In this document: piece by piece, positions 40,805 to 44,079 of the stretch | Layout of the letters: each line of letters begins with the position of its first letter | Numbering within the stretch: the stretch's first letter is position 1 | Source: the human T2T-CHM13v2.0 reference genome, Homo sapiens | Assembly: GCF_009914755.1 (NCBI RefSeq) | Contig: NC_060943.1 | DNA length: 64,000 bases | Strand: one strand, 5' to 3' | Notes under the pieces: generated by a model | Told to the model about the DNA's origin: nothing | Databases searched by the model: none | Seen by the model: only the letters and a program-made list of their open reading frames with translations | Made by a program: the position numbers and the translations under genes

Positions 40805-43234
40805 GAGAGAGAGAGAGAGAGTTATCCTCCTCTGAGTCAGTGGAGTGGCCTTTTGTATCCCATATGAGTTATTGTTGGCTGTGGACTGCCCTGGAGGGCG
40901 AATTAACCTCCTGGGTAATCCTCTAGGAAGGAGGATCTCATTAGCAAAGGGCATTTGTCAGAAGAGAAGGAGCAACTACAAACTGTAAACCATACAAGTA
41001 GCGGCCAATACCCCTAGCCTCCAGGGGAGAGCTGCACCAGCCTGAAAAACAGAAATAAAGAGAAATTAGGTGAGGCATCTATGGGTCTATTATGTGTGAT
41101 GTGTGTAAAACTATTGGATTTCAGATTACCTGTATTTATTACATTTTCTTAACTTTATATTCTGCTTTTCAAAATTGAAGTATAATTATTTCCAATAAAA
41201 TGCACTAACCAGAGAGTGTTTACACATGTACATCCGTGTAACCAACACCCCAATCAAGATATTGAGTGCTGTCATAATTCTAGAACATTCTCTTATTTTC
41301 CCTTCTGGTCCATCTCACTCCCCAGCCCTGGAAGCAACTACAGTTCTTGATTTCCACTTGCATGGATTAGTTTTGCTTGTTGTTGAATTTTATCTAAATA
41401 CTGTCATGTAGTAAACTACATATATATTTTTTAATTCCAAAAAAGGAAATTATGGCAAAATTGTTATTCCTCCAGTTGGCATTTTCACTTAATACGTGCT
41501 GGACAGTTTTCCATTTAATATATCTTGATTATCTTCATTGTATTTCAAAGTTACTTTTTCCTGCTGCCAAATATTCTCTAGCTCAGTTGTGTCAGACCCA
41601 TTTCCTTGGGTGATGAATTGCTAGGCTCCCATTGCTGTCACTGTTACAGAAGACAATGCTACAATGAGCGTTTGTTCAGTTGGCCCAATTTTATGCATGG
41701 ATTATGAGGAACTTTATAAAAATTCACATTCTCTGGTTCTCCTCAGATACACTGAACCAGAAAATCCAAAGGGGATCCCAAGATATTCAAAAAACTCTCC
41801 CAACAACTTTTGGTGCTCTACCAGGTTTGGGAACTGCTTAAGTGGGTCATTGTCCCTAGGTATCTGGTTGTAAAGGAAGATTTGAAATAAGGTGTCATCC
41901 AGAGGGAATCAGCAGGCTAAAGGGAGGAATTTGTTTCAAAGATTATAAATGTGAATTCCATCAATGATTTATAATATACTTTAATAATTCGTAGTCTGTG
42001 TCCTTCCATTTTTCTTTTTTCACAGGATTTTTTTCAGTGTTCACCATTGCCTAACTTTCCAGATAATCCATTATGTCTTGTACATTCACCAAACTTCCTT
42101 GATATTTTAATAGCAATTGCACTAAATTCATCATTAATTTGGAAAATTGTCATCGTTAAACATTTTGTCTTCTCATCTCTTATCATGGTATGTTTTTTCA
42201 TTTATGAACTCATTCAACAAATATTTACAGAGTTCATACCCTGTTCCAGGCACTGGGAATACAGTAGCAAACAAAGCAAAGGTTTGCCCTCTTGGTGCTT
42301 ACAGTGTCATTGGAGGAAGAGACAATAAACATACATAGCATGTCAGGTGGTGATAGGAGCATGGAGAAAAAGACAAGGGGCATGCATAGTGCAGGGTTAA
42401 GGGTATCTGGAGGAAGGGCATTCCAGGAAGAAGAACTCGTAACTACAAAGGCTTGGAAGTGACTGTGGCTGGAACAGAGTGAGAAAGGCAAGGAATGACG
42501 TCAGCGTTAGAAGGAGCACTCTGACTGGCCCATGGGCAAGAAATTGGGTGGGATTATCAAGACAAGAAACAAAATTCTGTATCAAGAGTACAAGATAGAT
42601 GACAGTGGCTTTGGCCAGGGTGGTGGTAGTGAAGGGAAGGGAAATGGTCAGATTCTGAATGTTTTGAAGATAAAGCCAACAGTACTTGCCGATGTCTTGA
42701 ATGTGGGTGGTGTCAGAAAGAGAGTCAAGGATACAACAATTGGAGGTCTGGAGGGGCCTGAAGGGGTAATGGGAGGAAAACTGCATGAGGAGCTTTTTTT
42801 TGTGGGGGACATTACAATATTTGTTTGGGGACATGTGAAGTTTAAGATGTCCATCAGATATCCAACTGGAGATGGCAAATAGGCAGTGAGATATATAGTT
42901 GGGTCAACAAATACACATACATATGCAAGCACACACATATCTCTTGAGGGGGTGGGGTCATTAGAGCATAGATGGTATGTTAAAACTGAGATTTAATATA
43001 CCAGTGAGATTTTGAAATTGTCATCCCATTATTCGAACATTTCCTCTGAGAGAGCATAGTTATGTTACATTCTTTTGTTTATCTTATATCTACTCAGTTG
43101 TACCGTTTTAAATTCAAACAGCTTTTCTCTTGATATGACATTTCATTTCTGATCATATAAGTCTATTTTCCTGCAAGTAACAATGGTGGCCCCTTCCTTT
43201 CCAATATTTATCCTTTTCCTTTTTTCTGTTTCAG

Positions 43235-43345
43235 GGCTTTGTGGAGTGGTCAAAAGCTCCACAACAAACAACCATAGTCTTGGTAGTGTGCGTGCTTTTT
43301 TTGTTCCTGGTTTTAACGGGGATGCCTATGATGTTTCACATTTAA
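43235..43345 (+). CDS. SMIM17: SMIM17 last coding exon (C-terminal transmembrane segment)
   Basis: Acceptor tccttttccttttttctgtttcag|; encodes [36 protein letters not shown]. The spliced CDS is 169+77+111 nt = 118 aa. Confidence 0.9.
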
Positions 43346-44079
43346 CTATAATGGTGGCTGTTGTTTTAAAAGTTTAATTTAATGAAATAGATGCCCTATG
43401 TCATGTTAAGGAATTGTGCTAGTTAAAAATCAGGAATAGGTGTTGAATATTTTCAAATGCCTTTCAAACATCCTTTGAGATGATTTTTAAAAAATTTTTG
43501 GTGTGAGTTTTCACATACTTTATTTCCATGAAATGAAGACATCATTGATTGTAAAACATTATTTTGTATACCACGGAGAAAGAAAAGTGCTAATTAATCA
43601 TTAAGATGCCACCAACTGGAAGATATCTCCTGACTTTGAGAAGATGAAAAAATGTGCAACTGAAGATCAATGAAATCTGGTACATTTCCTAACATCAAAC
43701 CAACTTTGCATTCTTTAGGTTTTGGTGCACCAGTCTTTTCATACACTAGATTATATTTATTGATATTTTATGTAGGATTCTTGCCTCTATCTTCACATGT
43801 GAGATTGGTGCTATCTTTGTGAAGTTTTGGTATCATGGTTAAGCTTGCATCATAGAAAGACTTGGGTAACTTTTACCTTTTCTATGCTTTTCAATAGTTT
43901 CTGTAGCTTAGGAAGTATCAGTCCCTTGACACCTTACATGAATTCATTGTTATAACCAGGTCATAGAGTCATGGAGAGAACGTTTCAGCTAATTCTTGGG
44001 CAGCTTTCTTAGTTCTTTACAATGTTATCAGTTTATTAATACTTTTTACCTCTTGCATTTATTTTGGCGAATTACAGAG

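What the first reader, a model, noticed from the sequence alone, without database searches (positions are those of the whole stretch)
43150..43490. The SMIM17 transmembrane exon is the antisense strand of an L1 ORF2 reverse-transcriptase segment
Seen: the strand opposite the last SMIM17 coding exon translates to [57 protein letters not shown]. Known: L1 ORF2p RT reads [54 protein letters not shown](L/I)GKEEVKLSLFADD. The two are collinear, including PLK-GT and I-IGKE. The polypyrimidine tract and AG acceptor are the antisense of the A-rich codons aligned to EKEIKGI, and the T-rich antisense strand supplies the hydrophobic [16 protein letters not shown]. Inference: the membrane anchor of this microprotein, its splice site, its stop codon and most of its 3'UTR were exapted from a dead retrotransposon. 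That would be a TE route to de novo membrane microproteins. I do not recall this being described for SMIM17.
Basis: partly seen in the sequence, partly recalled or inferred. Interest (0 to 1): 0.85.

Follow-up and report, generated by a model that had tools for sequence, protein, structure and literature searches.

The report
SMIM17 membrane anchor from antisense L1
The last exon of the small human membrane protein SMIM17, which encodes its membrane-spanning tail, is the reverse strand of an ancient dead LINE-1 retrotransposon; this is a real, well-conserved example of an already known way of making new exons.

Summary
L1 copies chosen without reference to this window match the minus strand across the exon. 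By protein, 12 of 12 match. By DNA, 6 of 6 match at 43179-43484 and 43684-43930, with E 1e-8 to 8e-6 against the whole 64-kb window. One old L1 copy gives a single hit at 43171-43946, E 6.9e-15. With the diagonal set from the 3'UTR flank alone, the coding part is 52-54 of 111 identical to L1 in 11 of 12 copies. Other diagonals average 30.4 and reach at most 49.

Collinear ORF2 matches continue past an Alu to 45297, so most of the 3'UTR is L1 too.

Caveats:
- The AG acceptor and the TAA stop are absent at the matching places in the L1 copies compared.
- L1 antisense in this frame is only half hydrophobic and carries two stops.
- The poly(A) signal lies in a different repeat.

The exon peptide is 92.6% identical across 25 eutherians, against 73-74% for the other two coding exons. 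No homologue outside Eutheria turned up. Antisense-L1 exonization is already known, so this is a new member of a known kind. No searchable paper links SMIM17 to transposable elements.

The parts
43170..43969 (-). Ancient L1 ORF2 fragment, reverse-transcriptase part, antisense to SMIM17 (firm part). It runs from the LPNSFYEASIILIPK-like stretch to shortly after ..IQLGKE, and stops before the next RT motif.
   Evidence: nhmmer with 6 query-independent L1 copies: 43179-43484 and 43684-43930. Old copy L004: 43171-43946, E 6.9e-15; L015: 43170-43484, E 9.3e-10; L003 reaches 43969 weakly. Collinear tblastn matches.
43205..43232 (+). Polypyrimidine tract of the last intron. It is the antisense of the A/G-rich L1 codons aligned to ..EKEIKGIQL..
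   Evidence: Sequence. L1 copies read CCTTTTTTCCTTCTCCT on this strand at the matching place.
43233..43234 (+). AG splice acceptor of the terminal exon. It lies inside the L1 fragment but is not present in the L1 copies compared.
   Evidence: RefSeq exon start 43235 (given) and sequence. Matching bases are CT in 5 copies, TT in 1, unaligned in 7 of 13.
43235..43345 (+). Coding part of the SMIM17 terminal exon (36 residues, GFVEW...MFHI), antisense of L1 ORF2.
   Evidence: Mean pairwise identity 92.6% over 25 eutherians.
43268..43336 (+). Codons of the predicted membrane helix (residues 94-116), antisense of the L1 stretch aligned as ..[21 protein letters not shown]..
   Evidence: Hydropathy maximum 2.83 at residues 96-114. 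AlphaFold2 gives one helix only, 92-110, block pLDDT 78-88. Alignment rows.
43346..43348 (+). TAA stop codon, inside the L1 fragment.
   Evidence: The matching place in L1 copies reads GTA (9), GAA (1), GCA (1); 2 of 13 unaligned.
43349..45380 (+). 3'UTR of SMIM17: L1 antisense, then an Alu, then L1 antisense, then a short other repeat.
   Evidence: RefSeq exon end (given).
44073..44388 (.). Alu-type SINE inserted into the L1 fragment. The label 'Alu' is from recall; it is a roughly 300-nt repeat with many copies.
   Evidence: Masked 44073-44384. 72-86% hits, often several per 3-kb locus.
44513..45297 (-). Distal continuation of the same L1 ORF2 (endonuclease and linker part), antisense.
   Evidence: Three tblastn matches (locus-relative residues 355-370, 338-351, 91-113). 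All are on the minus strand and within 120 nt of the diagonal predicted from the RT anchor plus the Alu length. 0 of 1000 dinucleotide shuffles reach the summed 63.5 bits. nhmmer did not detect this part.
45298..45373 (+). Short repeat that is not L1 at the matched sites. By recall it looks like the 3' core of a MIR SINE. It carries the AATAAA (45358-45363) used 17 nt before the annotated transcript end.
   Evidence: 8 genomic matches at 78-94%. In 0 of 8 loci does L1 ORF2 similarity overlie the match. Sequence.

Best explanation
A LINE-1 element inserted antisense in the SMIM17 transcription unit before the eutherian radiation. Its ORF2 region survives as a decayed fragment at about 43170-45297, later split by an Alu.

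The A-rich L1 coding strand gives a T-rich transcript strand. This offered a ready pyrimidine tract and a half-hydrophobic reading frame. Point changes then did four things:
- created an AG acceptor at 43233-43234;
- cleared two in-frame stops;
- raised hydrophobicity, taking T at codon position 2 from about 11 to 17 of the 23 helix codons;
- set a TAA stop.

The result is a terminal coding exon whose 36 residues form a single C-terminal membrane helix, with only a few residues after it.

SMIM17 is therefore most likely a tail-anchored protein. An acidic, disordered N-terminal part (net charge -12) would face the cytosol, held in a membrane by an L1-derived helix. The transcript ends at a poly(A) signal in an adjoining non-L1 repeat.

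Shown here: the L1 homology, its extent, the position of the signals, and the conservation of the peptide. Inferred: the order of the changes, the tail-anchored topology, and the function.
For: L1 homology and extent:
- 12 of 12 independent L1 copies match by tblastn.
- 6 of 6 match by nhmmer against the whole window.
- One continuous hit at 43171-43946, E 6.9e-15, with an old copy.
- The coding part is homologous on the diagonal set by the flank alone.
- The seven best genome-wide DNA matches of 43414-43488 are old L1 copies matched at the same ORF2 place in 6 of 7.
- Distal 3'UTR: 3 of 3 matches collinear, 0 of 1000 shuffles as good.

Signals and frame:
- Pyrimidine run present in L1 antisense; AG and TAA absent.
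- L1 antisense in the SMIM17 frame: hydropathy 0.9-1.6 and 10-12/23 T at position 2, against 2.48 and 17/23 in the exon.

Age and constraint:
- 79 and 120 homologues, all eutherian, including Afrotheria and Xenarthra.
- Exon 4 is 92.6% identical pairwise, against 72.9% and 74.3% for exons 2 and 3.

Protein shape:
- One helix at 92-110, the rest disordered.
- Hydropathy peak 2.83.

Mechanism known from the literature:
- 43 of 52 mouse L1 exonizations were antisense, including an L1-derived terminal coding exon with a new stop (PMC2176070, passages).
- T-rich sequence favours membrane helices (PMC7005711, abstract and passages).
Against: - The 59-aa antisense piece alone finds nothing in PDB sequences or Pfam, and its best whole-genome hit is E 0.013.
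- The L1 3' half (ORF2 beyond the last matched motif, plus the 3'UTR and tail) was not found in the intron. The element therefore lacks the 3' end that every L1 insertion starts with, and no target-site duplications can be shown.
- The distal part rests on three short matches and a test whose thresholds were set after a first, uninformative test.
- No L1 subfamily could be assigned, because no repeat library was available.
- Translation and membrane insertion were not tested here. The only protein-level mention seen is one cross-linking network passage (PMC7641301).
- Absence outside Eutheria is at the level of annotation only. SPAAR, another small protein annotated only in placentals, proved to have marsupial and monotreme orthologues (PMC8702040, abstract and passages).
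Confidence: 0.85

Rival explanations
1. Chance resemblance: the exon is not L1-derived, and a low-complexity K/E/L-rich antisense frame merely looks like L1 ORF2.
For: Single-piece searches are weak or blank. L1 makes up so much of the genome that one chance match would be repeated many times.
Against: DNA-level nhmmer gives E down to 1.3e-8 with independent copies and 6.9e-15 with an old copy. The flank-anchored test of the coding part also holds.
Confidence: 0.02
2. Exon replacement rather than gene birth: SMIM17 is older than Eutheria and once had a different C-terminus. The L1-derived exon replaced it, or was added as an alternative that then became fixed.
For: Exons 2 and 3 are single-copy and show no repeat or paralogue, so their age is unknown. 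Short, fast-evolving proteins escape homology searches (PMC8702040). Terminal-exon capture by antisense L1 is a described scenario (PMC2176070).
Against: No non-eutherian homologue among 120 profile hits. However, 6845 candidates without a named source were left out, and only annotated proteins of 0.55-1.75 times the query length are visible.
Confidence: 0.3
3. The exon is conserved for a reason other than the protein, such as an RNA or regulatory element, and the predicted peptide conservation is a by-product.
For: Only predicted proteins were compared, so synonymous and non-synonymous change could not be separated here. Near-invariance of 36 residues across Eutheria is unusually high for a simple membrane anchor.
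Against: The open frame, the helix length, and its position at the very C-terminus are kept in 25 of 25 canonical orthologues. The few differences seen are conservative: I/V, L/V, M/L.
Confidence: 0.08

Closest known systems
Antisense L1 exonization, including L1-derived terminal coding exons (mouse GBP-5 example; Zemojtel et al. 2007, PMC2176070, passages read)
   Same: An intronic antisense L1 supplies a pyrimidine tract and acceptor region, and a new C-terminal coding exon with its own stop.
   Different: Those cases are young, species-specific, mostly alternative, and use splice sites already present in active L1s. Here the exon belongs to the RefSeq Select transcript and is conserved across Eutheria, and its AG is not seen in the L1 copies compared.
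Old LINEs as a source of mammalian exons once repressive RNA-binding sites decay (Attig et al. 2018, PMC6108849, passages read)
   Same: An evolutionarily old, diverged antisense L1 lying next to and inside an exon. That paper found most L1-derived exons in testis and brain, and mouse Smim17 is expressed in neural tissues (PMC10097420, passages).
   Different: That work concerns mainly alternative, low-inclusion exons and does not address coding content. Its exon tables are supplements that I could not open, so this exon may be listed there.
'TM-first' emergence of membrane peptides from thymine-rich sequence (Vakirlis et al. 2020, PMC7005711, abstract and passages read)
   Same: A T-rich, previously non-coding strand already biased towards hydrophobic codons, whose membrane propensity was later increased.
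   Different: That work used yeast intergenic DNA and whole new ORFs. Here the T-rich source is the antisense of an A-rich retrotransposon gene, and it was added as an exon to an existing transcript.
Tail-anchored membrane proteins
   Same: A single hydrophobic helix within the last 25 residues and a hydrophilic N-terminus.
   Different: Membership is predicted only. There is no localisation or insertion-pathway data.

Membership tests
LINE-1 (L1) ORF2-derived sequence | Significant DNA similarity to L1 copies chosen independently of the query | tested here: met
   nhmmer, 6 of 6 copies, E 1.3e-8 to 7.6e-6 against the 64-kb window.
LINE-1 (L1) ORF2-derived sequence | Collinear protein similarity across several ORF2 motifs in one frame or strand | tested here: met
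   Six collinear minus-strand matches from locus-relative residue 91 to 677. 6 of the 7 matches of L027 at E<=10 are collinear. Shuffle control for the distal part.
LINE-1 (L1) ORF2-derived sequence | Match to the curated reverse-transcriptase model (Pfam RVT_1) above its cut-off | tested here: not met
   No family at E<=10 for the 59-aa stop-free piece. The piece is short and decayed, and longer reads cross stops, which the tool does not take.
LINE-1 (L1) ORF2-derived sequence | L1 3' end, A-tail and target-site duplications | tested here: not met
   No L1 similarity below about 43170. The intron repeats at 42200-42371 and 42597-42733 show no ORF2 in 0 of 9 loci.
LINE-1 (L1) ORF2-derived sequence | Assignment to a named L1 subfamily | not testable with these tools
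Transposable-element exonization (terminal exon) | Splice acceptor and coding sequence lie inside the element | tested here: met
   43233-43345 lies within 43171-43946.
Transposable-element exonization (terminal exon) | The exon is used in mature mRNA and translated | not tested
   Taken from the RefSeq annotation supplied with the finding. One proteomic mention (PMC7641301, one passage).
Tail-anchored membrane protein | Single hydrophobic helix close to the C-terminus and no other membrane segment | tested here: met
   Hydropathy 2.83 at 96-114 of 118. One helix at 92-110. No signal-peptide predictor was run.
Tail-anchored membrane protein | Post-translational insertion into a membrane | not testable with these tools
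   Needs an experiment.
De novo gene (born from non-coding DNA) | No homologue outside the lineage | tested here: inconclusive
   All 79 and all 120 hits are eutherian. However, only named-source annotated proteins are visible.
De novo gene (born from non-coding DNA) | Orthologous non-coding sequence in outgroups | not testable with these tools
   No other mammalian genomes are reachable here.

The most novel reading that the evidence does not exclude
SMIM17 as a whole arose in stem eutherians, and its anchor shows a general rule. The antisense strand of A-rich LINE-1 ORF2 would be a standing, genome-wide reservoir of ready-made pyrimidine tracts followed by half-hydrophobic frames. If so, antisense L1 would be a recurrent source of C-terminal tail anchors that turn soluble or non-coding transcripts into membrane proteins: a mammalian, transposon-fed version of the 'TM-first' model.
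Probability: 0.25. Interest if true: 0.7.

Novelty: new member of a known kind. Interest (0 to 1): 0.5.

Why it matters
Very few transposon-derived coding exons are both in a gene's main transcript and deeply conserved. Here the whole membrane-spanning part of an annotated human protein comes from the reverse strand of a retrotransposon's reverse-transcriptase gene, and it has been kept almost unchanged across placental mammals.

This gives a dated mammalian example for two ideas so far supported mainly by young or yeast cases: that old antisense LINEs mature into real exons, and that T-rich sequence is pre-adapted to make membrane helices.

It also separates what the element supplied from what had to evolve afterwards. 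The element supplied the pyrimidine tract, half of the hydrophobic codons and most of the 3'UTR. The AG acceptor, the removal of two stops, the further hydrophobic changes and the stop codon came later.

Tried and rejected
- **PDB and Pfam.** phmmer of the 59-aa antisense piece against PDB sequences and Pfam were both blank. The piece is too short and decayed for single-sequence search at that database size.

- **Masking.** The repeat masking supplied with the annotation does not cover the exon. I do not count this against L1, because only roughly 300-nt high-copy repeats are masked nearby. By recall, NCBI soft-masking is based on word frequency.

- **First shuffle test of the distal 3'UTR.** One search used very permissive tblastn settings and summed all collinear matches. 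It was uninformative: 106 of 300 shuffles reached or passed the observed value. I then set a stricter statistic after seeing that result (default settings, E<=10, at least 18.5 bits). Its thresholds are post hoc.

- **Search for the L1 3' half in the intron.** Weak tblastn matches at 42369-42428 and 41965-42126 are not collinear with each other. Three blastn matches at 42322-42363 fit neither. nhmmer found nothing. I rejected this lead.

- **Are exons 2 and 3 also repeat-derived?** The exon 2 peptide has no second copy in the genome (next best E 0.275), and no Pfam family passes its cut-off (RNF152_C at E 0.059 is below the cut-off). Exon 3 is too short to search.

- **Literature search** was badly specified: with min_terms 2 it did not force SMIM17, so it says nothing. 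One search ('LINE' as a whole word) returned only 'cell line' contexts, judging by the titles. Searches are the searches behind the statement that no searchable paper links SMIM17 to transposable elements. Supplementary tables were closed and may list the exon. So may the standard RepeatMasker track, which I could not see.

- **Dating by pairwise divergence** was considered and dropped. The copies compared were picked for similarity and lie in a conserved RT region, so the dating rests on the phylogenetic spread of the exon only.

- **Not done.** I did not use the third protein search to look for other proteins carrying this L1-derived segment.
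Full report
**What is in the sequence**

The plus strand at 43235-43345 encodes [36 protein letters not shown], followed by TAA. It is preceded by a long pyrimidine run and an AG at 43233-43234. The observation as a reading of the letters is therefore correct.

The region is not among the masked repeats of 100 nt or more in the supplied annotation. The nearest are 40495-40826 and 44073-44384.

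**Is the L1 likeness more than chance?**

Searches with the stop-free 59-residue antisense piece alone were weak:
- Nothing in PDB sequences at E<=10.
- No Pfam family.
- In a six-frame search of the whole genome, 37 matches besides itself, at E 0.013 to 7.9. Nearly all covered residues 2 to about 55 at 36-49% identity.

These copies read L1 ORF2-like sequence. They are copies of one family, though, so together they count for little more than the best single E-value.

I therefore fetched L1 copies without reference to the window, through the Pfam RVT_1 model run on the genome (loci L019-L030). I used them as they stand.
- All 12 open frames match the minus strand over the exon by tblastn. The typical match spans 43484-43194, with 33-36% identity over 100-107 columns and E 1.2e-5 to 2e-3 against 7 kb. 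L023 gives 1.9e-7 by sum statistics.
- All 12 also give a second match at 43869-43807, 55-57% over 20-21 residues.
- The first match begins at an ..IISIDAEKAFDKIQ.. row aligned to ..IISKDV*KAFENIQ..
- Six of the 12 were used as DNA queries with nhmmer against all 64 kb. All six hit 43179/86-43484 (E 1.3e-8 to 7.1e-6) and 43684/92-43926/30 (E 1e-6 to 7.6e-6), on the minus strand and collinear.

Older L1 copies that had come in through searches do better. L004 gives one continuous hit at 43171-43946 with E 6.9e-15, and L015 gives 43170-43484 with E 9.3e-10. 9 of 10 such loci hit the region; L011 does not. These loci had been chosen by similarity to parts of the region, so they are independent evidence only outside those parts.

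The seven best genome-wide DNA matches of 43414-43488 are old L1 copies matched at the same ORF2 place in 6 of 7; L005 shows no ORF2 at E<1e-3.

Finally, I fixed the diagonal from the 3'UTR flank alone and read off the identity of the 111 coding bases. It is 52-54 in 11 of 12 independent copies, with a one-codon shift; L026 misses at 31. The 2360 other diagonals give mean 30.4, sd 4.7, max 49. The coding part itself is L1-derived.

**Extent of the L1 fragment**

The firm fragment is about 43170-43969, on the minus strand. A roughly 316-nt high-copy SINE (Alu, by recall) sits at 44073-44388.

Beyond it, tblastn with L027 finds three matches at E<=10, at 44513-44560, 44572-44613 and 45229-45297. 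All three are on the minus strand and within 120 nt of the diagonal predicted from the RT anchor plus the Alu length. 0 of 1000 dinucleotide shuffles reach their summed 63.5 bits, and only 8 of 1000 show even one collinear match.

A first, permissive version of this test was uninformative, with 106 of 300 shuffles reaching the observed value. The thresholds of the second test were set afterwards. nhmmer did not see this distal part.

The last 80 nt are different. 45298-45373 matches eight other places at 78-94%, and L1 ORF2 overlies none of those matches (0 of 8). It carries the AATAAA at 45358-45363, 17 nt before the annotated end. By recall it resembles the 3' core of a MIR SINE; I could not test that.

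Below 43170 no L1 was found, and the intron repeats at 42200-42371 and 42597-42733 are not L1 (0 of 9 loci). The element therefore lacks its 3' half, tail and target-site duplications.

**What L1 gave and what came later**

At the place matching the pyrimidine tract, L1 copies read CCTTTTTTCCTTCTCCT on this strand. At the AG they read CT (5 copies) or TT (1), and 7 of 13 copies are unaligned there. At the TAA they read GTA (9), GAA (1) or GCA (1), with 2 unaligned.

Read in the SMIM17 frame, the 12 independent copies give rows such as A*LPWPELPTLC*IGVVEGIPVLCQFSKGMLPVFAHS. There are two stops before the helix (11 of 12 copies; L028 is unaligned there). Mean hydropathy over the 23 helix-matching codons is 0.94-1.58, and T is at codon position 2 in 10-12 of 23. 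The exon has 2.48 and 17 of 23.

The retrotransposon therefore offered a pyrimidine tract and a half-hydrophobic frame. The acceptor, the open frame, the extra hydrophobicity and the stop are later changes, as far as present-day copies can tell; the source subfamily is unknown.

Exon 4 is 35% T, against 15% and 20% for the coding parts of exons 2 and 3.

**The gene and its conservation**

Homologues were found only in placental mammals: 79 hits with exon 2 and 120 hits with a 25-sequence profile. They cover primates, tree shrew, colugo, rodents, lagomorphs, Laurasiatheria, Afrotheria (elephants, tenrec, elephant shrew) and Xenarthra (armadillo, anteater, sloth). In those two searches, 33 and 6845 candidates without a named source were left out.

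Across 25 canonical orthologues the mean pairwise identity is 72.9% for exon 2, 74.3% for exon 3 and 92.6% for exon 4. L105-P113 are invariant. The insertion and its exaptation therefore predate the placental radiation.

Whether the gene is older is open. A similar 'placental-only' small protein turned out to have marsupial and monotreme orthologues (PMC8702040, abstract and passages).

Exon 2 has no second copy in the genome, and no Pfam family passes its cut-off.

**Likely function**

AlphaFold2 on the 25-sequence alignment gives one helix, 92-110, with block pLDDT 78-88; everything else is disordered at low confidence (mean pLDDT 56.8). The hydropathy peak is 2.83 at residues 96-114 of 118, and the N-terminal 93 residues have net charge -12.

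This is the layout of a tail-anchored protein. That reading is an inference.

Two passages in papers bear on expression. SMIM17 appears in a cross-linking mass-spectrometry network in glioma cells (PMC7641301, one passage). Mouse Smim17 is expressed in neural tissues, with a weak maternal bias near the Peg3 cluster (PMC10097420, passages).

**Comparison with what is known**

- Antisense L1 exonization is established. 43 of 52 mouse events were antisense, including an L1-derived terminal coding exon with a new stop in GBP-5 (PMC2176070, passages).
- Thymine-rich sequence favours membrane helices, the 'TM-first' model (PMC7005711, abstract and passages).
- By recall, not seen here: Nekrutenko and Li 2001 and Britten 2006 on transposon-derived protein segments, Wheelan et al. 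2005 on 'gene breaking', and Lee, Ji and Tian 2008 on repeats at poly(A) sites.

For SMIM17 itself, 22 papers mention the gene (listing) and none also holds 'transposable'. Supplements and genome-browser repeat tracks could not be seen.

**Verdict**

It is a new, unusually well-conserved member of a known kind, not a new kind. Interest is 0.5.

Noticed in passing
window 45298-45373 (AATAAA at 45358-45363): The poly(A) signal of SMIM17 lies in a short repeat with 8 other genomic matches (78-94%). It is not L1 at the matched sites, and by recall it looks like the 3' core of a MIR SINE. The terminal exon is thus a mosaic of at least three repeat types.
   Followed up: partly
window 43183-43377 (+), protein P0001: An annotated 'isoform 2' (orangutan cluster, 103 aa) ends ...[16 protein letters not shown]...VVLKV. 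This is the same L1-derived exon read in another frame (ORF), as expected if the 77-nt exon 3 is skipped. The alternative tail also ends in a short hydrophobic stretch.
   Followed up: partly
window 33740-33838 (+): The frame of SMIM17 is open for 33 codons upstream of the annotated ATG. Some species' models (P0002, 155 aa) start in this stretch.
   Followed up: no
window 70-657 (+), 3127-4510 (-), 30398-30638 (+): Three further L1 ORF2 3'-part fragments in the window, much better preserved (nhmmer E down to 5e-57). They are unrelated to the SMIM17 element.
   Followed up: no
window 42200-42371, 42597-42733, 42816-42886: Intron stretches with many 69-89% genomic matches. No L1 ORF2 is found nearby in 0 of 9 fetched loci. 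The repeat families were not identified.
   Followed up: partly
proteins P0104, P0112: Some gene models fuse SMIM17 sequence with zinc-finger protein sequence (a PF00096 domain; a name matching the ZNF71 product). This echoes the annotated ZNF71-SMIM17 readthrough in human.
   Followed up: no
alignment A1 columns 49-58: Rat, hamster, guinea pig and mouse proteins lack a 10-residue stretch of exon 2 (LLEPERTKT- in the others). This gives 109-residue proteins, except the 95-residue mouse model, whose tail differs; the terminal exon is unchanged in the other three.
   Followed up: no
loci L010-L017: Most of the best six-frame matches to the antisense piece share one TGA inside the match. The alignments show it lies where these L1 copies are read one base out of frame after ..GKEE... 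The window's own L1 frame therefore carries a small indel between that point and the next RT motif.
   Followed up: partly
protein P0003 residues 71-108: Weak, sub-threshold Pfam similarity to the C-terminus of RNF152 (E 0.059, 14 bits against a cut-off of 27), covering the acidic run plus the helix. Probably compositional.
   Followed up: no
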